Shown here in pieces: positions 19,301 through 55,033 of a stretch of 64,000 nucleotides of DNA. The notes below the pieces were generated by a model. That model was not told the origin of the DNA, did not search any database, and saw only the letters and a list, made by a program, of their open reading frames with translations. Within the stretch, counting starts at the first letter, position 1, and every line of letters starts with the position of its first letter. Where the stretch lies: positions 4,040-68,039 of the forward strand of contig LWCA01000043.1 of assembly GCA_001642005.1 (NCBI GenBank). The letters run 5' to 3'. The DNA is from Intoshia linei. Lineage: Eukaryota > Animalia > Orthonectida. Both the position numbers and the translations under genes were made by a program.

Positions 19301-22233
19301 AACAAGCTATTAGTTTTTTACAGGAAATTGAAAATGATGCAACTTGTATAGACGTTCATTCGGTAATTTTTTTGATTTGCAAATTTTTCTAACCTGTACC
19401 TCAAATTTTTTTTAATTGAACCAATCAGGAAATAAAGCATGTGACATTTTCCAAGTTTTAAAAAATGAATCTTGAATTTTAAAATAATTTTTCAACGTAT
19501 TTTTAACTAAAGTTTTAAGTCAATTTAATAATAATTTAATTTTTTTTTTACATTATTTAGTTAAATTGTTTCACTAAAACTATCACTGCGTTTAAATCTG
19601 TCGAAACTGACCCGACACTAGGTAAAAGTAAAGGAGAATTAGTATATGAAGACTGTTTGCCATTTTTGCTTCATGATGAAAAGCAGTCATTGTTGGATAA
19701 ATTTGAGGTAAAATATTCATAAATAATAGTAGTAGTTTCCATATTAATATTTTAATAAGTTTTATAAAAAATTATTAATTACGTTAGCCCGCATATTGGT
19801 ACAATTTTATTTAGCTTCACCCCTGCAACTTAAAAAAGTAAGGCGACATTCAGTTGAGCGATACATAATCATCGATTTTGTTAATTCATCATAATATTTA
19901 TTTTTTGACAATATTTTTGAGGTTTTGTCAAGGACAAAACGTACATTTTGTAGTGTTTTTAAGTTAAGTTTTTTTCACCCAATTTTTAAAGATTTTAAGA
20001 CAATTTTGGGATCAAAGTTTTTATTGAGTTTTTAAGGGAATATCATTATTTTTACACAATTTTTTAAAATTTTGAAACAAAATTTTATAGGGTATTAAAG
20101 GGAATAATATTGTTTTTTCCCAATTTTAAAAGATTTTGAAAATAATTTTGTAGGGTCTTTTAAGAAAGTTTTTTTACCCACTTTTTAAAGATTTTGAAGA
20201 CAATTTTGGGACCAAATTTAATAGGGTTTTAAAGGGAATATTATTTTTTTACCCAATTTATAATAATTTTGAAGATATTTTGGGACCAAAATTATGTATA
20301 AGATAATAAAAATATAATAAAGAAACCTACAAAATGTCGTGAAAAATCAATGATGTGATAAATTAATAAAATCGAAGATGTATCGCTGAAATGAATATCG
20401 CTCCAGAGAATGGATGTCAAAAAGCAAATATATCAATTTTCACATGACATTTTTTAAAAAATTTAGTAAAATTATGTTTTCAACATAATTTAAATAAACA
20501 TCATATCATGGAATTTTTTATTATGATTGGGAAAAATCAATAAAATGTGTAATATTTTAAATTGCATACATTTTTGAGTTTGTGTTTTTAAATCTTCAAA
20601 TCTTTCAAAATCTCAATCTGAGATGTAGGCTGAACGATAAGGAAATGAAACTTTCAACAATTGAAACTTTTTAAGGCGATCAATTTTGTTATAAGCAAAG
20701 GTTTACCATTTTTTTCCTTTATTGTGAATCCTTAAAAAATAATAGTAAAATAAGTTGAGTTTAAACTATTTTAATAGAATACTACAGGAATTATTGTAAA
20801 TAATTTTTGTGTCGTTCTTTTGAATTTAAATTGATGTTTGCAAATGTCTGGATTCAATGTATTAATTAAATAAACTATAGTTATAATGGTTACTACGCTA
20901 CTTCTTCCCTTCAAAAACGACGAAGTCGTCAAATCGTTTGGGCAAACGGTTTTCCCTAGAGCGGTATTGTTGGCGGTAGAAATCCTTGACCTTTATGTTT
21001 ATGGATGTAAGGTTTTTGGTTTTTTGATAAAATTGGCATATTTTTTCTATAATTTCTTGAGTGGTAAGATTCTTACTTTGGCACTTTTTTGTCGTAATAT
21101 TTTTTCATACGTTTTCGATAATTGTTTGCATGTATCTCAGCTGAAGCATCACATTATATGCAATTTTGTTTAAATTTGGAATGGGTAAGTCGAGATTTTT
21201 AGGTAGTAGTATCATTGCTGGAGACTCATTTGTTTTTGATGTGGATAAATTTCTGATTTTCATTAAAAACCATGGAAGTTTTTCATCCCAGTTATCACAG
21301 GATTCATTACAATTTGTACGTATAAGATCTCGCAATGTACGTTGCATGCGTTCCACCGATCCATTGGATTTATGATCATAAGGTTTTGTGTAGGTGTGCT
21401 CGGTTTTAGTTTTATCGAATAGTTGTATACTTAGAATGTATACTTACAATACTGTATGTATGTGATATAATTGTATACTTAGTTGTATAATTTCTAAATG
21501 CTTTAATTTCATTTAATATTCAAATACATCATATTCTAAATCTTAAAAGAATGAAAATAAACTTTTTTGTGGTCTAATCACATCCCAAGAATCTCAAAAG
21601 TTTTTATGCCCATGAACCAGGTTCACGTTCCTGTAAACATTACAAAAAATTATGTGGGTTTTTAATCTTATCTTGAAATAATAACACAAAACTGAAAAAA
21701 TTTTAGAATTTTAGAAAATTTAATTTTGAAAAAATAAAATAAAATTCATTTTTTAATAAATGACAATGGACATGTCGGAATTAAAATTTTAAAAAATCCT
21801 TAATTACACATTACATTTTATTGTGACATATAATTAAAGTTTAACCCAATTAATTTTAAATTAGAAAATTATGAACAATTTGAAAAAAAAAAATTGCATA
21901 GATGAAAAAAACTCCAACATTTCCAATTTATTACAATATCTATACAAAAACTATGAATGCAACTTGGATAATTTAATTGAAAGTCACTCTGATTTTATAA
22001 AGTCAGCTGAAAGCGATAGAATAATTGCTTTACACAAGAGTATTGAATATGAAAAGATGAACCAATCCAAGGAAAAAATAATACTAGATTTGTTGAATAT
22101 GAGAGACAAAGAAGAAAAATTACGTTATTTTAAAAATGTAAAAGATATAGACATGCTAGTTGCAAATCTCCCGTCATGGCGGGTTGAATATTTTGACCAA
22201 GATTATGCTAAACTGAAAGATAATAAAGATTAA
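16311..22233 (+). CDS. MRPS27: Mitochondrial ribosomal protein S27 (mS27, PPR-like), multi-exon
   Basis: Basic presequence-like MRHLNLLKSWKYLNCGF. FRKVNASIFTPDYFDYSILRNVYE...KTYGVFLTKHFALILL resembles the MRPS27 KFRHSP...YGIFPDNFTFNLLM region. Also YINNHYFDNFFDLDKDDSIIGKCLL, SLRLLGLSLNEQF and last exon DKEEKLRYFKN. Family match is from recall of the sequence. Confidence 0.8.
16503..17445. repeat. Inverted minisatellite arms enclosing a Helitron 3' portion in MRPS27 intron 2
   Basis: Left arm (16503-16655) of TTTTACTAAAATCCAACC units; right arm (17325-17445) ending TTTTTAGTAAAATTGGGTGAATTTAAG. The enclosed 16660-17218 shares blocks with the Helitron at 59198-59668 and ends in a hairpin plus CTAG|T. 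Confidence 0.65.
19843..20401. mobile_element. Second foldback-like element, same family as 11587-12165
   Basis: GCGACATTCAGTTGAGCGATACAT...ATCGATTTTGTTAATTCATCA at left vs TGATAAATTAATAAAATCGAAGATGTATCGCTGAAATGAATATCGC at right; internal TTTTAAAGATTTTGAAGACAATTTTGGG tandem units. Confidence 0.7.
20600..21790 (-). mobile_element. Degenerate retroviral-type (rve) integrase relic, Gypsy/Ginger-like, in the last MRPS27 intron
   Basis: KPYDHKSNGSVERMQRTLRDLIR...WDEKLPWFLMKIRN...TNESPAMILL (21420-21190) matches the integrase core PYHPxSNGxVERxNRTL...WDxxLP...SPAxLL. Downstream IDRLKKF and upstream FEILGM remnants. Stops and frameshifts present; outer limits approximate. Confidence 0.8.
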
Positions 22234-22320: not shown

Positions 22321-23681
22321 TTAAAAAGACTCTTTATCGTCAAAATCGCAAACTTCAATATTTGACAGAGAAAATTCTGTATTTGAACTTGATATACTTT
22401 TTGCAATATTACGAGATCTACGATATGACGTTTTCGGACGATTTGGTCTTTTCGGTGAATTACGTTGGTTTGGTGATGTACTAGATTTTTTCGTTGTGAA
22501 GGATTTTTCAGGGTGTTTTCTTGGAATGTAAATTCCATTTGAATCGAGACTTCTTTTATCGACTACGTTATTCCTAAATTATTAAATTCATTATAAAGTT
22601 ATTTAATAGTACCAGTTGTAACGGGAGCCTATCGAATAAGCGTATAAACTTTCACCGTCACTCATGATGTGGGCAGAATTTCTAAAATTTAAATTTTTCG
22701 AGAATCAAATGTTTTTTACTTTTTCAAGTTTTCATAGGTGTCTTTAATGTAATGGTTTCTGTTGATTATATTGGAGTAAACTGAAATTGGTTTAAATATT
22801 ATTATGTTAGGGTTATTTATTTTATGTTTTAAAAAAAGAAATCCTTTTATTATAAATTAAATTATATCAAAAATAACAAAATTAAAGGTACCCGTCTATT
22901 TTGTATGAAATATTAGTTTATTCCATTTATTTTTTGTTTTGATATTTTTATAAATAATAATCAAATTTAAATGTAATATTACATGATTCACTACATAATC
23001 GTGTTTGTGCTGTTTTTGGTCTAATAAATGTTTTTTTGTTTTTTTCGTACCTCAGAAGGCTAGATTTTTATTTAATTGTAAATAAAATTAATTTAAAATC
23101 TATGATTATAAACGAGTCTGTATTTTTTTTAATTTGCTTAAGTCTTTACAAATTTTGGATGGAAATTTATAAAATAAAATTATTAATTAATTTGGTAATA
23201 GTCAAAAGGTTGGTTAAAAGTTAATTTTTATCATACATATTGTAAACATTTATCTTGAAATAAATGCTAAATTTAGAGGAATTTGAATAAAATTATCATA
23301 TATGATTACAAAAATTACGCCGATCTAGTGGGACGCCCTAATCGATCTTGTAAACTCATACAATCTGTTTGCGTAGATTTTTTTAAATACTGGTAAACTT
23401 GATCATGACGTTTGTAATATGATCTTTGAGTATCGGGTCTATCAGCCTATAAAAATAAAATTGTGATAAAAAAATGTTACGCTAATATTTGAGTCTTTCA
23501 AAATATACGCTACATCACTACTATCGAGACTAAACCATGAAGGAAATACTTTCAAACCTTCAGTTTTTGACTGACTATTCATTTGTAAACTGGCTAAATT
23601 TAAACTTAAACAAATGCCGAATTTTCCTTCACCACTTTTGATTCTATAATTGTCCAATTTGTTATGTTTATTGCGATCCAT
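22321..23681 (-). CDS. Small spliced orphan gene, Ser/Arg/Lys-rich C-terminus, no recognised domain
   Basis: Exon 1 MDRNKHNKLDNYRIKSGEGKFG...; further open exons with GT-AG flanks at ~23440-23330, ~22780-22720, ~22680-22612 and ~22572-22321 (...SPNQRNSPKRPNRPKTSYRRSR...DFDDKESF*). Confidence 0.55.
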
Positions 23682-23909
23682 TGTAAGGAATATACTTTTG
23701 TTAATTTCAATTTATTTACTAAACAATGGCAATGCAAATGAGTTATTAAACTAAAAACGTGACCCAGAAATAGAATTGTATCAGTACAAATATACTTTGA
23801 ATGGAATTTGTGAGTTTAACCATACTGTAAGATTCGTGAAAATTGTTAAATATTTAATTTGTTATAAATCAATACACATGATATATTTAATAAATTTTCT
23901 GTACATTCC

Positions 23910-26900
23910 TTAATTTTTGTTAGAGAGAGATTGAACCATTTCATCAAGTAAAACCCGAATATCGTAAACTCGGTGAATTTTTTCAGATAGTCTTAAACGT
24001 TCTCCGTCAAATAAATTACCCAAAGTATCTGGTACCTGTTCAATTTGAGTAAGATTATCTTCCACTAGCCTTTGTATTCTATTCAACTCTGCATTGACCA
24101 ATTGTTGTTTGACTAATCTTGAGCCGGTGGTGACTAGAGAATCAATTTTATCAAAAATCTCAATTTCGTCACAACTAAGTTCAAATTTTGTTGAATTTTC
24201 ACGCACAGTTTCATATTTGTTGATATCGTGTTGGTAAAAATAAAAACCTTTTCTACAATAACTACAAAGATTCAAAGAACGCTCCCAAAACCATTTTTTA
24301 TATGCAAGGTTCCAACATTTCTTAATGACGTCATCGTGGATAGAGTAACCTTCTAAATTACATTGTTTACGCAAAACTGACAGGCTTTCATTGTCTATAT
24401 TGATTCCATTTCCAGGAAGAAATGTTTTTATTTCGTCAAAAATATAATTAATTTCAGAAGGTTTTCTTTTAAAAATTGCGGACCAAGGGTTGATTCCAAT
24501 CAGTTTATCAATTTCCATATTGACGGTGCGTGAATTGTCTAGGATGAAGTCAGACATTAAATATCCTGCTCGGTTCCATTCGTCCAAACTCATTTTACGT
24601 TGTTCGTTTATTACACTGTGTAAATGAAATTTAAGAATAGATAACGCTTTATTATCCCAAACAAAATTCTGTACCGTTTCATCTATAATTTTCTTTTTAG
24701 TGTTATTAATTTCTCGGTGATATGGGTGTTCAGTTTTATTTTCATTAAATTTATTTAGTAGTGCATCTTCTAACACTGATTTTCCAACTGAAATACAGGT
24801 ACTAGCTAACTCTTTTTCAATCCATGTTTTTAAGGCTATATTAATGTCGGTGCTAAATTTTCCATGGAAATTTTCGATACTGTCCAAATTCAAATCTTGT
24901 CTTATTCTATTTTTTGTTACGATTGGGAGGTAAATGTTATTTAATATTGGGGCAGAGATTTTTTCTTTTAGTTTATTTTTAATGCTGTTATCCCAAAATG
25001 CATCGCTTAAATCACTCAATTTTGCCAAATCGTCCAATATTTTGTTTCTGGTCTAAAATTAAAATTTAGATAATAATAACTTAATATAAAATCAATTGAT
25101 ATTTTAAATCAGGGTTGTAAAGAAATTATAGGTTGATGTGATGTTAATCAACATTTCAGTAACGTCGAATCCAGCTACTGTCTAGTGGCGGATCTAGGAT
25201 TTTTAGCCAGGAGGGAGAAATATATTATTAGGGATCAAACTCATATAATGTTTATTATTTGAATTTTTATTAATTACTCATGCTGTCCCTCTCTTCCTCT
25301 AAATCCTCGTTTCATGGACCTCAAACTTGATCATAACGGCCCTACTTATCTAATTTATAAAAATCAATTATCTTTTTTGGAAGAAACATGGAATACTTGT
25401 CACAAGATTATGAACACCATAAGTAAGTATCGCGATACTTTTAGTTCCAAATTGTCATCAATAGCCAAACAATTCACTACCTTCATAACTGTTTTAGGTG
25501 ACTTAGGTTACCCGATCTTAGAACACCACTATAATATCATTGAAAACACTCTTAATTTAGACAGTGATAATTTATCCATTTCTGGATACAATAATGTACT
25601 ACTTTAAAATCGTTACAAACATGGATAAAGCTTCTTCTGATTTTGAGAAATTGAAACAACCCGATTTATTAATACATTGCACCAAAGATTTCCAAGAAAT
25701 CAGATCACATCTTCTTAACCTCTGCTTAAAATCACTTTCAATAAACCTTATCATATACACGAAATTTCCAGATGACATTTATGATATTGTGCATTCCTTA
25801 TTTAAAAGTTCTAATAGCATAGAAAACTATCCTGAATGGGAGATTCCATTGCCGAACAAATTCTGGACAACTTGTTTCCATTTTGAAATTTTGATTTATC
25901 TTAATCATATACTAACATTCATTGATTTATTTTTCTTAGTATTTACATTATATTTTATATTATACTAATAAAGTGGTCAAATAATATCTATTTTCAAGAA
26001 GAAATAGACGAGTTAATAAGATTATTTCAATCAACATTGTAATTAATTGTAACTCAGTCTCTTGAAGATTTTTTTTTACTTTTGATTATTTTCTATATTT
26101 TTATATCTTATTTCTTAAGGATTTTACATATCCTTTATTATTTGCAATTTGTTACAAATAATATTAGCTCAGCATGCATGTAATAGGAGTTATGCGCAGA
26201 CTGGCGCAAAATTTTATTTCATCTATAATTTTCTTTTTCCTTTTTTCAAAAAATGACGGGCATTACGCAGACGCTGATAGGATGGACGTAAGTATTATTC
26301 GGCGTAACACGTAGTTATGTTGAATTTATATACGTAAGAACCGTTATTTTTGCGTTGTTTCCTTTAAGAAGGATCATATTCGGTGTAATGCAATTAGCAT
26401 GTTCTGTAGTATCAGGAATAATCGTAGATGGGTTGAGAGTGTTATACTCAGTCATAATAGCAACCATACAAATACAGTTTTTAGTATTTATACTATATCA
26501 AAGAGTATTTGTATGGCAAGACTGCACTCCAACTCACAAAATAATACCCACGCCTCGGTTTTGATAACCAACGTATTATCAAAACTAATAATACACAGAA
26601 TTACGTAATCGGTTATGGAATAGACCCGCCGTACTTTTCTACGGAAATCAAAGCGCGCGAACCAAAGATGATCGTAAGGTTTAACAGTAAAAAAGCTTTA
26701 CGACAATTCTCAAGCTGTTTATGTCGAAAAATATTATTGCACAATTATATGAGAGTAATACCTCTATTACGCTCGCAAGTAACGTTTGACCTAGACAGTT
26801 GTGAACAACAATATTTCGATTTGATCCCGAAGATACGTTTCGAAAATTTCTATCAATTGGAACTACCAGAACGAACCTACAAAAATTAATGAATAAAAAT

Positions 26901-29900
26901 TTCGTGTTGAATTTGGTGAAATTGCTGCCAAACTCGATGACACACTGTGACATTGATTTCAAGATAAAATATGCAAAAAATAGGACGGAGGCAATAAATG
27001 AATATAGATATCTTTGGAACGGGTATCAATACGTAATTAATTGGTACACTAACTTTATCGACGTGTTCGATGCGATTCCAATTATCGCTTTATACATTGT
27101 ACAATGTACATATAATTATTAATAAAATTATATATACAGGTTGGAGGCCATGGAATGATTGGAGTAACTGTGATGTTGAATGTGGTTTTGGAGACAAATA
27201 TAAAGTGCGAAGTTGTGCATATGGGACTGATAAATGCATTGAAGTATACTTTAAATATCAGAGATGCTTTGTGGAATGTTTTCCACATATTAATTTTAAA
27301 TTACAGTATTATATTGTTATATATCATTATATATATTATAATTAGTATGTTATGGATAATTTTCCATATTAAGCATATATCATGGCAAATCTGCAATAAT
27401 ATAATGTTAATTACACACTAGCTAAAGTTACACACTATGTAATTAACTTAACTAATGTAACAACAATGATAAAGTTGTACATAGTGTCGAGTCTATTAAT
27501 GAGAAATCTTTACAAAATGTTAAATTTTGTACCTCCACTACAAACAACGTTCAGAGTGAAACAGTAAGGTTGTTATCGGGGAAAAAGAAAAACAAGGCTG
27601 CACACGCACTCAACAAAAATGGACCACAGGGACATAGAGAACAAGGTAACATAAAGATAAATGACATAGTTAACAACATTGGAGCTTACAACAATTCTGC
27701 TCAGTGATCAAAAATAAATGATTATAAAACTGAAAACCTTTCAAAGACGCTTGAAATAATAAAACATTTAGGTGAACTTAAAACCATCGACATTTTACAA
27801 TTCTTAACCTCTGACAGGCTCGAGCATTTGCATCAGCATGCTGGAGTTTATCAGTTGGATGAACATACACAAAAAATAAATACTAATGAAATTAGATTCA
27901 GATCTACCATCTATGCTGATAGAGCTAGTATTATTCAAAATATAATGGATACGAATGAGTTATTTACGGACTATTCGTCTCATCTAGTGTATTCGACCAT
28001 CTCTATCCAGGCACTTGCTGAGATGCGAACCGGAGACCTTAGCCACCAACTGAATATATGTAAACGCCTATCTCTCAACAGAAATAAAGTTACTGGGGAT
28101 GTTAAAGTTTTCAACACTTTGAGAGCAAATAATAATTGCTGCTCATTTGTTGGAAATATGTCAGCTGTCTTCATACAACGATTAAACCAGTTTTTCGTTA
28201 TGTTACAATACGACCGTTTCCTCAGATTTTGCACAATTCAAGAAAAGCACGTAAGCAATGGATCAGTTTGAAGAAAAAATTAGTAATTTGAATATAACCA
28301 TTGATGAATTAAAGGTGACGGGTGAGGTTAAAGTGGAGAATTATATAGTTATATAGTCTAAGGGATGACCCCTGAAATTTTCCAGAGAAGGTGTATTTAT
28401 AATTTTCATCAATTTGATTTTCATATTTATTCTATTCTATCTATGGATATTGAAATTTTAATTTGCAGAATCTAAAGTTTCTACAATTCGAGTTATGTAA
28501 AGATATTGAAATTTCGTACTATCCACGACGAACACGCCAATAATGGGAATTTAATTGCTCATGTAGCAAGGACCGTGTATAGACTAGTGTTTGTGAATAT
28601 TGATGACTATATGCTAACAATGGTAATACGTTAAAAGTAAATTTCGGAGAGGAAGAGAATAACGAGTAATAATGAAAAATCATCATTTTTATAAAATTAT
28701 AAGAACTTCAAACATCTATAAAATAATAAGTAAACGAGGTAGAATTAAATTTAAAGGTGCAAAGTAAACAACCAAACATGATGATCAACATCGTTGGTTT
28801 TTGCATATTCAATAAATTGTGTTAAAAATTATAGTAATATAAAGTTGATGTTAGATTTAATCCATTGCGAAGTATTTAATTGGCCATTTATCTGTGATTT
28901 AAAAGTAGTGTGAATATTAGCGGGCATTCAAGCCGGTAATGTCAAATTACCATGTTTTATAAGTAAATTTAAAGGCGTTATTATTCGCGCGAAAACCCGC
29001 ATTGGATGGATCCTACTAAAGAGCACTCATGTCCAAAAGTGCTAATGTGGTGCGAATTTTGGAGGAGTCATGTTTTGGACCCATTCTTTTTCAACAATAC
29101 AGTGACCGGCGAGGTGTACTTGAAAATGCTACAAAATGATCTCATGCCACAGATGGAGCGCATCGGTGAAAGAAAACCCCTTTGGTTTATGCCTCCACCT
29201 GTTAAAAATCAAATAAACGATTAACGAATTAAAATAAAAAGAATTTATTAAAAAATTATAAATAGATTAAATTTCAATTTATAATTTATTTACTATTAAT
29301 CTAATGGCTGCAAGTAAGACCATAGATTTTAACAAACTCACACATAGTGAGAATAGAGCTTTACATAAAGCAATGAATTATCTAATTGACTCTACAATTT
29401 CCAATGTAGAGAAGATTAGTACAATAACGGAATACAAAAATGAAGTTAATACAAACTTTTTCTTTACGGAGAAAGAATACAAAAATATTAAAATTGAAAA
29501 CATAAGCGGATTGCTACCCTAGAATTAAGAATATACCAAATCAAATAATTCAAATCTATTTAGTTTTCTTTCACTGCTACCATATGTATTTTTCCATTGT
29601 ATATTTAAATTGTAAGATAAAGCACGAAAAACTTCCGCTTGTTCTTCAACAGAATCCTCCACAATTTTCCAAAATCGGCTACTAACAGCCTTGCTTAAAT
29701 TTGGAGTACCAGTTCTAGTATACAAATCTGCCATATTGATAGGAACGTCTATAAATTAGATATATACCAAAGTTCAAGCCATTTGGGATCGAGAACAAAA
29801 ATGTTTCACAAATTATGTGCCAAATCATTTTAGATTATATGAATAATGGTTGTTGACTATACAATAATTTTTTTCAGTTTCGAACAAAAATTAATCACTT

Positions 29901-31689
29901 ACCATTGGTGATATTGTGAACTAGTCAGATATATACGAATAAAACTTACTAGATTCTTTCGTTTTTTTAAATTTGGGATCGTTTTTATCTGAGTTCATTA
30001 GTGAGCATTTCCGGAAAAATGATTCTTCATACTGTTGTATTTCAGAAATGGTATCCTGTTGGTTTCCTCGACCAGTTACTACTGCATAATAACCTAATGC
30101 TTTGAGAGGAACTAAATAAATAATAAATTTTACATTTTAACAGTTAAAAAAACAATCAAATGCAACATAATAGGATTCGAATAAGTAAGTTTACTGTGAT
30201 AAATATTGTTATATAAATTGTAGACCCATAAAATAAAATTAAAACGAGTTTTTTAATTTAAATCAAAAAAGGTGTCGTTAAAACTATAAATTTTTAAAAA
30301 TGGCGCAATCCATGACATTTTTTAATTTTCAACATAATAAACAAAAATAACGCACACTAAAATATTATAATTATATATTATAGTAATTAATAAAAAAATG
30401 GCGCAAATTAGAAATAATATAGACCAGGTAAATAACCAAAATAAATTGACATGGCTTTGTATAAAATATAAAAAATTACGCAAAGTCCCGTTGAGAATAC
30501 GAAAAATTCTTGTTCGATCAATCATTTGCCTCTCAGCTTCATCAACTTTGGTCAATACGCATATGGTTCTTTTACCTTGTGGGTCAGCTTGCATAACATG
30601 ATCTGTAGCATTAGTGCGTTCAGCATCTATTGAACCATCCTGAACATACAAAATGATTGCATTTGGATTAGAAAGGTATTTACGATAAATGGATTTAATC
30701 TGTTGAGGCGTATCTTTTGCAATATCCTGAGTGACAGTACTAATAACCCCTGGTAAGTCGACCAGTACCATTCTGTGCAACTCTGGACCACTCACACTGA
30801 GAGATACGGGATGTTGGCTAACAGTTTCGTTTTTTCCAATCAAATTGGTCATTTTAAGTTTAATGGTATTTCGGAGATCCTTGGTATCATTTTCGTTGGT
30901 TAAATCATATTCCCTGTCATCATCTGGAAATCGAGCAATATGGTATGGTCCTTCACTCAATGTCACTTGTACCGGGCATCTCGTCATCATTTCACCTCCC
31001 CCCCTAGGAAAAATTCTGGCTTGAGCCAACATTTCCAAGACACTAGTTTTACCTGAACTTTGATCTCCGGCTACGACGACCCTGGGCATACGGTCTAATA
31101 ACAATGTCATTGAGTTTTTATCGTTTGAATCATGGGTAGCATAAGATTTTGCATAATCATTTAATTCATCGAGTAATTCAGAGTACAAATCAATTAAAGG
31201 TTTCTTAAAACGTGTTTTAGTATTTTTTCTGTCTTTGTATCTCATTTTAGTGCGAAGTAATTCTTGTCGAGTTAAACTGTATTCATCCTTTAATTTCTCC
31301 GTTTCTTCTTTATATTTAAAATTTATTGTGGATATTTCAACCTTTAATCTTTTAATTTCATCGACAAGGTTATTTATATTTACACTTAATTTTTGGTCCG
31401 CGTCATTGTTGGAATAATCTTCCTGGTCTAATTCGGTAAAGTAAGATTTAATTGGAATTAATTTGTGTGACGTATAATCTTTAAAGTGTTTATATCGGTC
31501 CTGAGAACTATTATAAATGGACGAAATGTATTTTGAAGGTTTCTCAAGCCATGTAACGCCATCAATCTGGTTGTTGTACCATGCTTGTATATTTTCAAGC
31601 TTTTGTTTGATAACATAACCTGAACCAACTGCTGTTGCTGCAACGAGATTTCTGGTTCTCAATAATGCCCTTATAATTACACTTGCCAT
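23910..31689 (-). CDS. OPA1: Mitochondrial dynamin-like GTPase OPA1, multi-exon
   Basis: [13 protein letters not shown]1 [28 protein letters not shown]3 DLPG, G4 TKVD. Next exons [16 protein letters not shown] and [25 protein letters not shown]...QWKN. 4484-nt intron at 29536-25053; last exon 25052-23910 with [12 protein letters not shown] and [16 protein letters not shown]. Confidence 0.96.
25314..25968 (+). other. Unassigned intronless coding-like fragment (two overlapping ORFs, one frameshift) inside the OPA1 intron
   Basis: ORFs 25314-25607 and 25564-25968 with globular-looking composition; visibly C-rich/G-poor on this strand relative to flanks. Confidence 0.4.
27140..27345 (+). other. 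Isolated thrombospondin type-1 (TSP1) exon, antisense within the OPA1 intron
   Basis: Acceptor ATATACAG|G at 27139, then [26 protein letters not shown]...C...RCFVEC (WxxWxxCxxxCGxG...RxC signature). Confidence 0.75.
27456..28356 (+). pseudogene. Decayed intronless ORF of unknown (possibly viral or TE) origin in the OPA1 intron
   Basis: One frame is open from 27456 to 28271 apart from a single TGA at 27705. It continues after a frameshift as [20 protein letters not shown]. Higher GC than flanking intron; no recognised motif. Confidence 0.45.
28976..29191 (+). mobile_element. Tc1/mariner-superfamily transposase internal fragment
   Basis: [10 protein letters not shown]...[41 protein letters not shown]...LWFM matches the ENPH...KVxVWCG...IGPFFF..TVTG..YL.ML...WFQQDGA segment; truncated before the second Asp. 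Confidence 0.85.
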
Positions 31690-31839
31690 AATTTAAATTT
31701 TTAACATTGTAATTTCATTTACACAATAAACTATTTATATCAATTTAAAGTTTATTTATCACAATGGTAATTTTACCGCGCAAATTCCATTATGTTTTAC
31801 CTTTGAGTATTTTTTCAATCTAAGCTGACATTTTTAATT

Positions 31840-34800
31840 ATGATTGATTATGAACGTATAAAGGTAATATTTTCTTGGTTTTTGAGTAACATAATTTTAG
31901 GTTGCTATTAAAGATTGTTTAACTTATAATAATTTGGACGATGCCATTTTTCTATCGGAAAGATTACACGCTCAAAGTATTTTTTATTATTTAAAAAAGG
32001 AACCTATAAAAATGATTCAAACTTTTAATTTAATGACTAATAATTATTCTGGTATAGATTAAACCAGCTTTTCCAAACAGGGAGTATCGGGATATTTTAT
32101 TTTTTTAAATTGAAAAATAAAGTTTCTAAATTTTTTCAAATAAGCTAGATTATACTTTTATGTTCATGAATTTTCTTAAAATTTTTAATTTAAAATTTAA
32201 TTTACCTACTTTTTTGGGTGTAGTAAATGGGACGATAAACTTTTTTTGCCTTGAACTAAAAATTTTTTAATAAAAATGATAAAAATATATAAATATGTTA
32301 ACAAAATAAGATGGGTATATAGATGAAGTCCTATGAGAATGATTTTATTTGATATTTACACTAAAATTTTTTATTTTTTAATTTAGTTAAAAACCCTGAA
32401 ACCATATACCTTTTAGCGAAAAGTTTGTACAGATCGAGAAGTACACTACGCACTTATAATTTTTTGTGTAAATTCAGGAACAACCAATTATGCACTAAAT
32501 CTAGAATAATGTGTATTCAAGTTTGTTTTGATTTAAAAAAGTAATGCCATTTTGTAAAATTTTATATATATTTTTTGTCTTAGATACAGAGAAGCTCAAT
32601 TTTTTGCATTCAATACAATGGAATGTGATAGTATCAGTTTGGATGATTTATATGCCATATATGGAAAAGAAGTGTCATTTGTAGCTCGACTTTTAGGGAA
32701 AATATACGCGTTTGTTAATCATTTTTTTAAAATTTTAAGAGGCCCAAAGTTTTTTTACCATGGTGACCTTTATAATTTCTTATTAAATCTCTTCAATTGC
32801 AAATTTTTGTATATTTACAACTTTTTAAATTTCACATGATTTAGTAAAATCTTATGAGAAAAAATTTAATTTTACCAACCCTTAAGGAAAAAATCCCTCT
32901 ATCAGATAAATAGAGTCTATCTGATCCCAAAAGAAAAAACTTAATTTTACAACCCTAGAAAAATATTATTAAAAAGTGATCATTTACAAAAAACACTTTA
33001 CAAATTGACGTATACTCAGAAAAAACAAAAAAAACTTTAAAAACCCCATGCAGGTTGATTAATAAAAAATCCATGCTTGTTTAGAATAGTAGCTTTTAAT
33101 CTAATAATTTAATTTTTATCTTTTATTTAGAATATTTGGAGATTTAAAATCATCAATTATGTATCACGCTTTTTCATTATCCATGAATCAATACAATTTT
33201 TCAAGTTTTGATAATTTATTACAACACGGTATTTTGTTAAAATTAAAATAAATAGTAAATATTGTTTACATTTTTTTTAGGTATTGAACCAGGCTTGGAG
33301 ATATTTGACGATCAGACCATTTTAAACGAGGATTTGTTAATTTATTCAAAATATATGGTTACTAAAATTCTTTCCCAATTTGATGCAAATTCATTAATTT
33401 CCATAGATGAAAGTTTACCAGTAATTTTTTATATTTTTAAACTCATGATATTCTTAGGTTGTAAATATAATAAAAAGAAATCAAAATAAAAATCCTTTAT
33501 CTATATCTCAATCTGATAATGTCGAGTTTTGTTTACTGAGGTGAATTTTTATATTAAAATTTAGAATAGAAAAAGATTTAATATATTCCTTTAATACAGC
33601 CATGTCTGAAAAAAACCAAAATGCTTATACAAAGTGTTTTTCTTTTAATTGATAATTATTTTCCAATATAGGTCCCCTCAAGATTATGTTAAATCTGTTA
33701 AAACCATACCGAAAAAATTAAAAAAAAATGAATTTGAATTTTTACCTAATAGTACAAGTATGTAGTATTCTCATTTTACATGATTTTTATTTAGTGTCGT
33801 TTCTAAGTATAATGAAGTGTATAGCTGATGCTTTTTATGAATTTTATAGATATGATACTGAAAAATTTATCAAAAAAATTCAAAGATTAAACCCTAACCA
33901 ATTTAATACTCCATGGATCCAGGGCATAATCGGAACGTGTTATTATCATTCATCAGAATATGATAAGGTTAATTTATTCAATTTTTACTTATTAAATTTT
34001 AGTCAGTTGAAGCATTCAAGTATACTAGAGAATTGGAAGAATCTTATGTGTTATTTATGGATTATTATAGTCAGACTTTATGGCATGTTAAAGATTTAGC
34101 TAAACTGTCCTTATTATCTTCTTATTATTTGGCTAATTATAGACGAGCTTCAGAGGTAAAACTTTTACTTTTTTAGATTAAAAAAAATTAAATCTATAAT
34201 ATTAACAGACGTGGTGCATAATGGGTAATTTCATCAGTGTTTCAAAATCTGGTACAGAATCATTTAAATATTTTAAAAGAGCTATTGAGGTAATTTGTGG
34301 TTTATACATTTATTTAAATTTTAATAATTTTAGATAAATCCTGAATATTTTTTATCTTATGCTATATTGGGCTGTGAATATCTTAATAATAACAAGGATG
34401 AGATTGCCATCACCAATTTTTACGATTCCATTAGATGTAATCCTCGTCATTTTATTAGCTGGTAAGTTTTGAGGAATATTTTTGTACATTTATTTAGGTA
34501 CGGTTTATCGCATTTGTTTTACAGAAATGGCAATATATCTAGATCAAAATTTTATCTAGATATTGCTCTTTCAATTAACCCAAACAATATTGTTTTACAA
34601 TGTCAATACGGACTGGTTTTTTTAACAAGAAATAAATAATTTATTTTTAGCTCTTAAGTGATATGGGACATCTCTATGAATCATTGGATCATATGGATTT
34701 ATATATATCCAAGTACCCTAAACACCCTCTATGCCGTTTCCACAAAGCAATGATTTTGTTTAACAAATCAAAGTTTAAAGTATTTTTATTTAATATTTGT

Positions 34801-50339: not shown

Positions 50340-53300
50340 TTAGTTCCAAAACAATTGCTGTTGATTATGTATACTTTGTTGGTTATCAACTTTAGGCTGA
50401 GAACAATCAGACTGAAATTTGAAAAATTCAACAACTTGGTTTTCATCAATCAAATTAAATTTTACAGAGTCTTTGAAAACACTTTTAGTGTTTTTTAAGA
50501 AATTGGTAGTTTCGGAAAATGTTTTTAATCGAAATAAAGAGACTAAATTTGTCGGATCATAAAAATAAGCTGAAATATTTCCATACTCGGCAATTCGTGT
50601 CTTTAAAAGAAATCCATCAACCTAAAAAACATGTAATTGAATCACAATAAAAATACCTCAACATTTTTTAAAATAACAAATGGAATATTATTCTCATTAT
50701 AATTGCCAATTTTTGCAGATAATTCAACAGGTATAGAATTTTTCGGTCGAAGCGAGGAATTTTTCCAATAACTTGCCGTGCTAGGTGCAGTAAAAGAGTT
50801 TTGATCGTTTTGATACATTTCTAAAATAAATTAACTACAAAAAAAATTGCTGATACTTGGCTTAAAATGAGAGTCAACATGCTGATACTCATTTGATTTT
50901 TCATTGAATTTTGAAGTATAAGATTGAAAATTTGGATAATTGCAATTTGGTTCTTTATAAAAGCTTTGATTTTGATTATAAAAAAATTTTTTAATGTTTA
51001 AATCTTTATTAATATTATGTATTTCATACACAACACTGTCCAATTTTCTTTGAAACTCAATACTGGATGATTCCATATTAAAAGCAGTAGAATTGAGGGA
51101 TGCATGTAACGTTTTTTCCTTCATGAGTAAATTTTTGAGAGAATTTTCCAAATGCACAATTTCGTTCCGCAAACCGTTCTTTGATTCAGAACTTAACCCG
51201 TCGTGATTCGTCCTGGAAGAGTAAACATTCCCACCATTTTGGTGTACATAGTTTTGATGAGATGTATTATTGATAAATTTGGAATCATGACTAAAATTGG
51301 AGTAATTTTCGAGATTATTGTACTGGCAATAAAAATTTGATTTCCGAGAGTTTTGGAGAGAATTTCTCGGATGAGAATCGAAACTGTTGTTTTTGTAAGC
51401 ACCCTTGTTTTGTGAAAAATCATTTTCATGTACAGGCAATTTAGCGGGATAATACTGTTCGTACATTTTACTAATTTGTTCATCGTTAAAATTTTTCGCG
51501 TGTTGACGATAATTATTTTCATACTCTTCTTCTTTTCGGTTCATTTGAACAATTTCAGAGTTGTAATTTTGTTTACAAACGTCCTTTGAATAATCTTTGG
51601 AACTTGCTTCGGAACAATAGTCTCGTGATTCGAAATTACGAAAATCACTAGAATTATTAGCTTCATTCCAAATATGAGTACCATTCCTCTTGGAATCTTT
51701 TGACCCGGCGGAATCTCTTTGATTCCAACCAACAGAGCTAACTTTTCCGTCTCTTTTAATATTTTGAGGTTGACTACAATTTAACCCATTTTTTTTATAA
51801 TTAACATCGTTTGATTTACTATCAAAGTTTTTACCCTTAAAATTTTTATGAACATTGTTTTTACAAGATCGATCATAATCATTTTTATTGTTATAACTCG
51901 TGGTGTTTGAACTCTTGTAGTCACTCTTTTTTTTATAGTAGCTATCACCGTTCCATACGCTGTAATCTCTGTCACTGGGATTATCGCGAGGTTTACGAAG
52001 AGCTGTACCTTTGTCGCATTGTAAAATGTTGTCATTTTGTTTTTCAACCTTGCCATTGATATCGGAAGGGCGGTTGACACGGAACTTTTCCCAAATCAGA
52101 GTACCATTATTGCTATGTTGAAATTTTTTTGAATTAACATGTTTCTTTGTCGGGATTTTAAGTCGAGAAATGTCCCAAATTTTCTTTTGACAAACAGGCA
52201 GTTGACCCCACTTTTCACTCGACTCTATTAATTCAATATTAGCAGATGATTCGTCGACCCCATCAAATGTATTCGATCTGTCTGAACCGCGAAACTGACA
52301 ATTTGGGGAAACGACAGAATTGTAGTTTTCGTGGTTTGGTGTTTCTGAGTGATTTTTAAAGTTTAGTGCAGTCTTGGAACCGAAATTTTGTAAATCTAAA
52401 GGGCCGTTGAGATAATTAGACATTTGGCTAAAATTAAATTGAGTCGGAGAAACATTCAAATCAGTGTACGATGGGTTTTTTTTAGGATTGTGGAGATTCT
52501 GACTACTCCGGTCTGCACCATGAACGCTATGACCTTCCTTGGACATGTCCAAATTACTATTTTGAGATGAAAAATATCTGCAAACTTGTTGAGTATTTTG
52601 AAGTTTGATATCGATTGAAGTAGTTGTATTAAATATTTTGCAATCATTGTTCCAATTTTTGTTTCTATTTTTTACATTTTTGAAAAGGTGCAAGTTTGTA
52701 TTACAGTTTGACCTCGATTCTTGATCAACTATTGGAAAAGTATTTTTTTTGTTTTTATCATTATTTAACTGTGGCTCGAATTTAGATGTTATACATTTGG
52801 AATTAGAGTAACTATATTTATTGTCATCGATAGAAGTGCTCCATATATCTTGATGTTTTTGGTTTACTTGGAAATTTGTGTCAGCACCACGATAGCATTG
52901 CTCGTTCGGGGCTATATTATTAATATTAAAGTTTTCAAATGCATGGTGCATTGTTCCAAATACTCCTTGGTCTTTCTTCTTGGATCGTGTATAAGGTTTG
53001 AAGGATTGAATCGTATTGGAATCCTTCAAATTATTATCCAGGTTATGCGAATGATTGGAATAATTCGAATTACTCGAATTTAGGTTATTTGTCAAATTGG
53101 GGAGCTTCCCCATAGCGAATAAAGAGTTTCCATCGTGTTCCAAGTGAGGCTTGTCACAATCAGACAGATTCATACCCGTATAGTACATTGAAGGCGCCTT
53201 AGAACCAATAACAGCTTCCTGACTTGGATTGCGTCCTTTAATTATGTATAAATGTTATCAAAAAAATTACCTGTTATTGTGATTTCTGTAGGATTTTCAT

Positions 53301-54584: not shown

Positions 54585-55033
54585 CATTAGGGTGTTCAAA
54601 AATTTTAAAAATTAAGTCCAGCTTCAGAAAAAGTTGATTAATTAATCAAAAATGACAATAAAAAACAAATTATATAAAATAAGATAAAAATTTGCGAAGA
54701 CGCTTGCCATTTTAAATATCCCATACAAAAATGTTTATAAACACTAAAATATAACTTTATTTACTGAAATGGTATGATGATATATTGTAACTATGTTTTA
54801 AGTAATTTTGTGTTGATCTTCATGTTTGGCTGTTCACTTTGCATCTTTAAATTCAAGTGTACCTCGTTTACTTTTTATTTTATTCATGTTTAAAAATTTA
54901 TCATAATTTTATAAAAATTTTTACTAAAAATAAAAATAATTTTGTAGAATTGAATTTAAACATGCAAAATGAACAACCAAACATGACGATATATAGACAG
55001 CAATATTTGTCGTCGCAAGACATGAACTACGCA

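What the first reader, a model, noticed from the sequence alone, without database searches (positions are those of the whole stretch)
25053..29536. OPA1 intron is a 4.5-kb patchwork of unrelated coding fragments, all antisense to the host gene
Seen: unlike other long introns here, which hold AT-rich MITEs and minisatellites, this one is a chain of abutting 0.2-0.9 kb coding-like pieces all on the + strand. They are unknown ORFs 25314-25968, a membrane-like/unknown segment 26254-27122, a TSP1 exon 27140-27345, a decayed ORF 27456-28356, a possible decayed frame ~28440-28670, a Tc1/mariner internal fragment 28976-29191, and an ORF start 29304-29522 ending 14 nt from the donor. Inference: a capture locus. 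Either an intronic piRNA/siRNA-cluster-like archive of invader fragments transcribed antisense by a housekeeping gene, or serial capture by a Helitron/Pack element or templated break repair. Strand is certain only for the TSP1 and transposase pieces.
Basis: partly seen in the sequence, partly recalled or inferred. Interest (0 to 1): 0.75.

Follow-up and report, generated by a model that had tools for sequence, protein, structure and literature searches.

The report
Antisense fragment mosaic inside OPA1 intron
In a tiny parasitic worm, one intron of the essential mitochondrial gene OPA1 is a real 4.5-kb chain of broken pieces of transposons, host-type genes and unknown genes that face against OPA1 wherever their direction can be read, likely built up by sloppy DNA-break repair and kept because backward-facing pieces do least harm, with a role in small-RNA defence possible but untested.

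Summary
Observation largely confirmed. The host is the orthonectid Intoshia linei. All 4 spliced (RNA) runs laid remove intron 25053-29536 exactly. Exact contigs from three further samples cover most of it; 28784-29153 and one join near 27370 were not shown bridged. It holds about nine mutually unrelated pieces. These include a 217-nt internal slice of a Tc1/mariner transposase, 90% identical to a complete element, two MITE pieces, a likely Chapaev-type piece, a TSP1 exon with flanking splice sites, and four ORFs without homologues. Six pieces are oriented by test, a seventh by a recalled motif; all oppose OPA1. DNA depth tracks GC, suggesting one copy. No Helitron ends, terminal-repeat pair or target duplication were found. 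The public nested gene model here looks like an artefact. A minor splice (1-2.5% of main-junction depth, 2 of 4 runs) joins patchwork sequence to the last OPA1 exon. Best reading: stepwise DNA-level accretion filtered by selection (0.45). piRNA source 0.25, untestable without small RNAs. The scan noted a similar mosaic in another genome (e1-8148615).

The parts
23910..25052 (-). OPA1 last coding exon (OPA1_C)
   Evidence: Pfam PF19434 E 1.5e-52; joined to 29537 in 4 of 4 spliced runs
25053..29536 (-). The 4484-nt GT..AG intron of OPA1
   Evidence: Joint 25052-29537, CT..AC on +
25053..25277 (-). Minor 225-nt intron from a cryptic donor at 25277 (ATGA|GTAATT) to the normal acceptor; leaves patchwork sequence joined to the last exon
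   Evidence: Joint 25052-25278 in X2 and X4, depth 11.5 vs 968 and 464 for the main joint; absent in X3 and X5. X2 contig runs 25278-27165 unspliced
25183..25308 (.). Decayed MITE-like repeat; left end intact, right end decayed or cut
   Evidence: 9 DNA contigs have loose ends before 25184; sub-terminal inverted pairing, z -1.1, not significant; MITE label inferred
25314..26044 (+). p1: frameshifted ORF of unknown family, host-like codon use, with a possible 35-nt intron (25939-25973) and short last exon
   Evidence: Openness 0/300 shuffles; CAI 0.70-0.72; candidate intron has an atypical AAG acceptor; no homologue
26217..26238 (+). 22-nt exact copy of OPA1 exon sequence 24677-24698, 14 nt upstream of the membrane ORF
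   Evidence: 0 of 150 shuffles reach 22 nt at either of two block sizes; longest other match from nine control stretches 18 nt; T-rich, so suggestive only
26253..27122 (+). Broken intronless ORF with hydrophobic N-terminal third; one stop (codon 13) and two frameshifts (near 26545 and 26885); foreign-looking composition
   Evidence: CpG o/e 1.4-2.0 and CAI 0.63-0.64 vs host 0.6-1.07 and 0.67-0.75; a diverged DNA paralog differs at 7 synonymous third positions in the + frame (hand count); no homologue
27099..27414 (+). TSP1-domain exon (27140-27305) with an upstream acceptor and a downstream 40-nt AT-rich intron-like stretch (27306-27345)
   Evidence: Pfam TSP_1; host-type splice signals; expressed paralog with 8 differences and other flanking sequence, plus DNA paralogs
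27407..27455 (.). Junction with repeated ACACTA words inside a 10-bp inverted repeat; contigs carry 16 nt more than the window
   Evidence: fold z -1.0, not significant
27456..28356 (+). p4: 900-nt intronless decayed ORF, one stop (27705-27707) and one frameshift near 28265; unknown family
   Evidence: Openness 0/300; only strong hit among 1.84 billion representatives is the gene model of this locus; nothing; AF2 pLDDT 37
28395..28684 (+). p5: exon-like stretch 28470-28665 between an acceptor-like and a donor-like site; weak
   Evidence: Sequence, candidate donor 28666; openness not significant
28685..28790 (.). Internal slice of a high-copy MITE-like repeat; relatives continue on both sides
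   Evidence: 85% match to 54811-54918; loose ends before 28685 and behind 28790
28791..28977 (+). Slice of a multi-copy, expressed element; likely Chapaev/Transib-type transposase (label recalled from a motif, not confirmed)
   Evidence: Paralog contigs match 28791-28977 (from_end values) and lack the window's in-frame stop; no hit
28976..29200 (+). Internal slice of a Tc1/mariner transposase, between the first and second catalytic aspartates; no element ends
   Evidence: 196/217 nt identical to L001 898-1114, with no other part of L001 in the window; L001 has 35-nt terminal repeats and a 351-aa transposase; differences by codon position 7/5/9
29304..29522 (+). p7: 72-codon ORF ending 14 nt from the donor; unknown family
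   Evidence: Openness 1/300; weak PHROG 602 hit E 2.8e-4 not borne out
29537..29748 (-). OPA1 exon upstream of the intron
   Evidence: Spliced contigs

Best explanation
The intron is a chain of DNA fragments 100-900 bases long from transposons, host-type genes and unknown genes, likely single-copy, likely added step by step by error-prone DNA-break repair and trimmed by deletions, and likely left facing against OPA1 because forward-facing pieces with splice signals would damage an essential gene. Shown: the intron is spliced out; the pieces are unrelated; the Tc1 slice lacks element ends and decays neutrally; the TSP1 piece carries intron sequence, so it came as DNA, not as mRNA; orientation is one-sided. 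Inferred: the joining process (microhomology or templated repair versus nested insertion followed by deletion, which these data cannot separate), the order of events, and selection as the cause of the orientation.
For: Three repeat families meet end to end with 0-2 nt overlap and none brings its termini: 28685-28790, 28791-28977, 28976-29200. No target duplication with terminal repeats, no TG..CA ends and no Helitron ends bracket the insert. DNA contig depth follows GC: intron 17.5 at GC 0.310, OPA1 exon contig 16.4 at 0.313, so no amplification is needed. Host-type short introns lie inside pieces on +. Two junction zones show locally copied-looking sequence: the 22-nt copy of a nearby OPA1 exon and the ACACTA repeats at 27414. 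Flank-templated 'patchwork' insertions are a described product of polymerase-theta repair (PMC8654963, passages). A neighbouring intron also holds a coding fragment in antisense. With a prior antisense bias of 0.67-0.8 (values assumed), 7 of 7 has probability 0.06-0.21.
Against: Polymerase-theta inserts in the cited paper are short and flank-derived; pieces of 200-900 nt from distant loci need another or an added route. Why one intron gathers about nine pieces while ten other long stretches of the window are mostly AT-rich repeats is not explained by neutral accretion. With no prior bias, 7 of 7 has p 0.016 two-sided. The two sharpest junctions (28790, 28976) lie in the stretch that no listed exact contig bridges. 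Both templated-junction signs are in low-complexity DNA. The empty ancestral intron was not seen.
Confidence: 0.45

Rival explanations
1. The intron is a selected single-strand small-RNA source (piRNA or endo-siRNA). OPA1 transcription reads every piece antisense, and the minor splice at 25277 would put the patchwork into a processed transcript that could reach the cytoplasm and be cut into guides against transposons and other invaders.
For: All orientable pieces are antisense. Slices of at least two families with expressed relatives are present. The minor joint is in 2 of 4 spliced runs, attached to up to 1.9 kb of patchwork, and X4 depth falls away from the 3' end (11.5, 4, 5.4, 4.9). In Drosophila an antisense transposon fragment inside a cytoplasmic host transcript is enough to start piRNA production (PMC13226689, abstract and passages). 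Mosquito core clusters use host-gene readthrough and hold antisense viral fragments (10.1101/2022.08.22.504762, passages).
Against: No small RNA could be tested. Piwi in this species was not documented. Transposase coding is only about 9% of the intron and about 10% diverged from relatives. The TSP1 piece would target an expressed host-type gene. The minor joint is 1.2-2.5% of main-joint depth, within ordinary cryptic splicing (my knowledge), uses a donor inside a repeat, and contig depth is a poor measure of level. The cited mechanism needs exonic, exported sequence; the main product removes the intron.
Confidence: 0.25
2. The insert is an old non-autonomous Helitron-like or Pack-type element that captured gene pieces elsewhere, inserted as one unit, and has lost recognisable ends.
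For: Serial capture of unrelated gene fragments without target duplication is what Helitrons do (PMC4224331, passages). The chain starts at an intact repeat end at 25184. CTAG occurs at both borders, 25182 and 29519.
Against: No CTRR|T end on + at the right border; hairpin there z -0.46. The only Helitron-like end in the intron lies inside the TSP1 exon on -, and 5 of 60 shuffles give one. No matching right terminal repeat. Depth suggests one copy. No listed contig shows the same junctions in other flanks (tables were cut).
Confidence: 0.15
3. The intron holds one or more nested genes on the + strand, such as the public 533-aa model A3Q56_00705, or the decayed remains of a small nested gene cluster.
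For: The model exists in NCBI. p1, TSP1 and p5 have + strand splice-like signals. p1, the membrane ORF and p7 begin with ATG. Nested genes tend to be antisense to the host (my knowledge).
Against: The model reads the TSP1 exon in the frame without the Pfam hit and part of the membrane piece in a frame other than its paralog's. Contigs 25278-27165, 27369-28089 and 27455-28783 run unspliced through five of its six predicted introns. No GT..AG joint inside the intron is listed (complete for X3 and X5; one search hides 6 rows). The model has no relatives (cluster of 1). Unspliced contigs may come from the OPA1 strand, so weak + strand expression is not excluded.
Confidence: 0.1
4. Part of the chain is an assembly artefact, joined through repeats or chimeric reads.
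For: No listed piece spans the whole intron. 28784-29153 has no listed exact long contig, and at 29098 all laid contigs differ from the window. Contigs meet at 27369-27370 with 2 nt overlap. The window lacks 16 nt at 27414.
Against: Exact contigs from three further samples of a second study bridge MITE/p1, p1/membrane, membrane/TSP1 start, TSP1 tail/p4 and p4/p5/MITE. A DNA contig bridges Tc1 end, p7, donor and exon (29154-30264). Both halves are anchored to OPA1 exons.
Confidence: 0.05

Closest known systems
Host-transcript piRNA sources: antisense Tirant insertions in Drosophila host exons (PMC13226689) and readthrough core piRNA clusters of Aedes (10.1101/2022.08.22.504762)
   Same: Fragments lie antisense within RNA made from a host-gene promoter; many unrelated pieces share one orientation.
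   Different: Those are exonic or downstream and proven by small RNAs. This one is intronic, only 4.5 kb, mostly non-transposon, and no small RNA has been tested.
Helitron gene-fragment capture (PMC4224331); Pack-type DNA elements (recalled)
   Same: Serial pieces of unrelated genes with intron sequence; no target duplication.
   Different: No TC...CTRR ends with hairpin, no terminal-repeat pair, no sign of further copies.
Polymerase-theta templated 'patchwork' insertions (PMC8654963)
   Same: Junctions with 0-2 nt overlap; locally repeated words; one 22-nt copy of nearby sequence.
   Different: Described inserts are short and flank-derived; here pieces are 100-900 nt from unlinked loci and about 10% diverged from relatives.
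Tc1/mariner DNA transposon (complete relative in locus L001)
   Same: 90% identical over 217 nt of the transposase.
   Different: Only an internal slice; no terminal repeats, no TA duplication; not a mobile unit.

Membership tests
Single-strand piRNA cluster | 23-32-nt RNAs with 1U bias map densely to one strand | not testable with these tools
   No small-RNA run among the 6 runs listed; all laid runs were contigs
Single-strand piRNA cluster | Fragments lie antisense to the precursor | tested here: met
   6 of 6 pieces oriented by test, plus 1 by recalled motif; p5 undecided; 2 MITE pieces have no strand
Single-strand piRNA cluster | A long processed precursor contains the region | tested here: inconclusive
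   Minor joint 25052-25278 in 2 of 4 runs; strand only from CT..AC ends; export unknown
Single-strand piRNA cluster | Enriched for fragments of mobile elements with expressed relatives | tested here: inconclusive
   About 14% recognisable transposon sequence; about 44% unknown intronless ORFs
Single-strand piRNA cluster | Host encodes Piwi-clade proteins | not testable with these tools
   No whole genome held; not stated in papers found; genome paper not held
Helitron composite | 5' TC and 3' CTRR with subterminal hairpin, inserted between A and T | tested here: not met
Helitron composite | No target-site duplication | tested here: met
   Only chance-level 4-6-mer pairs at the borders
Helitron composite | Further copies sharing ends or junctions | tested here: inconclusive
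   Depth fits one copy; genome not searchable
Pack-type cut-and-paste element | Terminal inverted repeats at both ends with a target duplication | tested here: not met
LTR-mediated chimeric retrocopy | TG..CA ends, short target duplication, introns removed | tested here: not met
   No TG..CA pair; intron sequence retained around TSP1
Templated break-repair insertion | Microhomology or short templated filler at junctions | tested here: inconclusive
   0-2 nt overlaps at two junctions not shown bridged; 22-nt nearby copy; ACACTA repeats
Templated break-repair insertion | Empty ancestral site shows a clean break point | not testable with these tools
   All samples laid carry the insert; no related genome held
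Endogenous viral elements | Homology to viral proteins | tested here: not met
   No viral relative for p1, membrane ORF, p4 or p7; these searches miss very distant relatives
Tc1/mariner (28976-29200 slice only) | Derives from a DDD/E transposase bounded by terminal repeats | tested here: met
   L001: 35-nt terminal repeats, 351 aa, DDE_3 and HTH hits below curated cut-offs, 40 residues between second and third D
Functional nested gene | Spliced + strand transcript with an intact frame | tested here: not met
   strand-blind data, so weak expression is not excluded

The most novel reading that the evidence does not exclude
A highly reduced animal parasite keeps a compact immune archive inside a housekeeping intron. 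It holds antisense slices of transposases and of genes from still-unknown viruses or mobile elements (the intronless, homologue-free membrane ORF and p4). A built-in minor splice site converts about 1-2% of OPA1 transcripts into a small-RNA precursor. I. linei is one of 3 of 538 animal proteomes with viral-type RNA polymerase genes (PMC6396948, passage), so viral capture occurs in this genome.
Probability: 0.15. Interest if true: 0.8.

Novelty: new variant of a known kind. Interest (0 to 1): 0.45.

Why it matters
If neutral, it is a clear record of how a compact animal genome shuffles gene and transposon pieces at DNA level, and it flags a public gene model (A3Q56_00705) as a likely artefact. 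If it yields small RNAs, it would show that an intron plus a minor splice site can serve as a piRNA-type memory in a lineage where genome defence was not described in the papers found. One small-RNA library and one long read would decide this.

Tried and rejected
Homologue searches found nothing: p4 among proteins of 102-328 aa; membrane middle frame among 62-200 aa; a forced two-row profile of p1 and the membrane ORF among 116-380 aa, sensitivity unmeasured. Longer parents of p1 and the membrane ORF were therefore not searched. The representative search gave 3 hits: the locus's own model and two repeat proteins judged spurious. ESM Atlas: no usable hit for p4, best 0.77 for p1; the membrane ORF has no Atlas result. 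Viral contigs gave none in 5 scans; prokaryote genomes none; plasmids and phages none. PDB sequences gave nothing below E 0.05. Rfam had 0 matches at E 1. The AF2 model of p4 had pLDDT 37, so no fold search was run. Pfam SF1-HH on p4 (19.6 bits, cut-off 29.3) and PHROG 602 on p7 are treated as noise. Apparent p1/membrane similarity (22%) is chance (z 1.2). Apparent 2-3-fold DNA depth in the intron is explained by GC. The Helitron-like end at 27261 is chance-level. The bacterial promoter scan was uninformative. No listed run was on record as RNA; X2-X5 were treated as RNA only because their contigs are spliced. X5 gives no cover of most of the intron, which proves nothing. Literature: no paper held both 'Intoshia' and 'endogenous viral'. 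None of the listings concerned this locus. The genome paper is not held. Supplements of PMC6396948 had no 'Intoshia' hit; bioRxiv supplements were not seen.


Full report
Host and gene. The one strong hit to the 27708-28268 frame among 1.84 billion representatives is a 533-aa protein, 99% identical, annotated as Intoshia linei A3Q56_00705; it maps wholly inside this intron. The window's short introns of 34-43 nt fit the short introns reported for this species (PMC6543705, passages). The flanking gene is OPA1 on the minus strand. No whole genome was held, so genome-wide questions rest on contigs from five runs laid on the region.

The intron is real. Four runs with spliced contigs (X2, X3, X4, X5) all join 25052 to 29537 with GT..AG ends on the OPA1 strand. 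DNA run X1 has exact contigs at 23173-25213, 25184-27121, 27212-27370, 27369-28739 and 29154-30264, plus 27115-27241 with one difference. Runs from three further samples of a second study carry exact contigs such as 25278-27165, 25185-25812, 27369-28089 and 27455-28783. So most junctions are confirmed in other samples, with no substitutions in the long pieces. Not shown bridged: the join at 27369-27370 and the stretch 28784-29153. The tables were cut (462 and 180 rows hidden). Two samples show 16 nt more at 27414 than the window.

What is inside. From left to right on +: 130 nt of acceptor-side intron; a MITE-like repeat whose relatives share a sharp start at 25184; p1; a spacer; the membrane-like ORF; a TSP1 exon with intron sequence on both sides; p4; a weak exon-like stretch p5; a slice of a second repeat; a slice of a multi-copy expressed element whose motif I recall as Chapaev-type (unconfirmed; searches found nothing); a Tc1/mariner slice; a spacer; p7; 14 nt of donor-side intron (sizes). 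The Tc1 label is tested. Metagenome locus L001 holds a complete 1.4-kb element with 35-nt terminal repeats. The window matches only its bases 898-1114, at 196 of 217. Differences fall 7/5/9 on the three codon positions, as in neutral decay. The translated pieces are unrelated to each other. p1, the membrane ORF, p4 and p7 have no detected homologue (see Tried and rejected for limits).

Orientation. A stop-and-frameshift path test puts p1, p4 and p7 on + (0, 0 and 1 of 300 shuffles; their minus strands 278, 22 and 11 of 300). The membrane ORF is open on both strands (0 of 300 each). Its diverged DNA paralog, seen, differs at seven synonymous third positions in the + frame (my hand count on about 60 nt of loose ends and one listed variant), which favours +. 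TSP1 and Tc1 are on + by homology. The Chapaev-like piece is on + by recalled motif and because its relative lacks the stop in that frame; the synonymous pattern there does not help (1 of 8). p5 is undecided. Seven of seven gives p 0.016 without prior bias and 0.06-0.21 with an assumed antisense bias of 0.67-0.8. One other intronic coding fragment in the window, an integrase piece at 21108-21443, is also antisense to its apparent host gene.

Copy number and ends. Depth of nine exact DNA contigs rises with GC from 2.7 at 0.21 to 24.6 at 0.32, with one short outlier; the intron contigs sit on that trend. This suggests one copy. No target duplication with terminal repeats, no TG..CA pair and no Helitron ends bracket the insert. 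Three repeat slices meet with 0-2 nt overlap and without their termini, although these joins lie in the unbridged stretch. A 22-nt exact copy of OPA1 exon sequence 1.5 kb away sits just before the membrane ORF; none of 150 shuffles at either block size reached that length, but it is T-rich.

Transcription. Besides the main splice, X2 and X4 show a joint from a cryptic donor at 25277 to the same acceptor, at depth 11.5 against 968 and 464; X3 and X5 do not. In X2 it continues unspliced to 27165. So a minor processed OPA1-strand RNA carries at least 1.9 kb of the pieces in antisense. Its start, level and export are unknown; contig depth is a poor measure. No + strand splice joint inside the intron is listed. 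The public nested model uses the TSP1 frame without the Pfam hit, and unspliced contigs cross five of its six predicted introns. I judge it an artefact.

Mechanism. The anatomy is best met by stepwise DNA-level accretion, through error-prone break repair or nested insertion with later deletion, filtered by selection against sense-facing splice signals in an essential gene (0.45). A selected small-RNA source is the main rival (0.25). The orientation and the minor splice fit what is now known of host-transcript piRNA sources (PMC13226689, abstract and passages; 10.1101/2022.08.22.504762, passages). Against it, transposase coding is about 9% of the intron, and neither small RNAs nor Piwi could be checked. 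The two readings are not exclusive: a neutral pile could be co-opted. A decayed Helitron or Pack composite (0.15; PMC4224331, passages), nested genes (0.10) and partial mis-assembly (0.05) follow.

Novelty. One-orientation mosaics of fragments are a known kind of locus, and this scan noted one in another genome. What is unusual here is the compact intronic setting in a housekeeping gene, the mix of host, transposon and orphan pieces, and the minor splice form. I found no description of the locus in the listings; the genome paper was not available. Interest 0.45; 0.8 if small RNAs and a viral origin of the orphan ORFs are shown.

Noticed in passing
L001:139-1562: Complete Tc1/mariner element with intact 351-aa transposase and 35-nt terminal repeats in a metagenome contig, 90% identical in DNA to the Intoshia slice. 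Such closeness hints at horizontal transfer; the contig's host is unknown.
   Followed up: partly
window 20880-21443: Retrotransposon integrase fragment (Pfam rve_3, E 1.3e-4, below cut-off) on the minus strand inside an apparent 2.1-kb intron of a plus-strand gene.
   Followed up: partly
window 30480-32583: One contig in X2 joins OPA1 5' exons (minus-strand splices) to plus-strand splices of the next gene from 31862 on, suggesting head-to-head genes with overlapping 5' ends; a contig does not prove one transcript.
   Followed up: no
window 27414: Contigs of two samples carry 16 nt more than the window in a short tandem-like stretch; probably a local assembly collapse.
   Followed up: partly
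window 54811-54990: MITE-like element with inverted ends, related to the 28685-28790 slice.
   Followed up: partly
window 50834-53254: 807-codon Asn/Ser-rich exon with a tryptophan motif that I recall as GW182/TNRC6-like; Pfam gave no hit. If right, it would point to a working microRNA pathway.
   Followed up: partly
window 26253-27098: The membrane-like ORF is almost as free of stops on the minus strand as on the plus strand (0 of 300 shuffles each); unexplained.
   Followed up: partly
window 29506-29522 and 25174-25197: The two borders share several GC-rich short words (GCGGAT, GCTAC, CTAG) in different order; chance level not excluded.
   Followed up: no
window 31401: C>A difference in contigs of X1 and X3 but not X2 or X4, inside OPA1 coding sequence; likely a polymorphism.
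   Followed up: no
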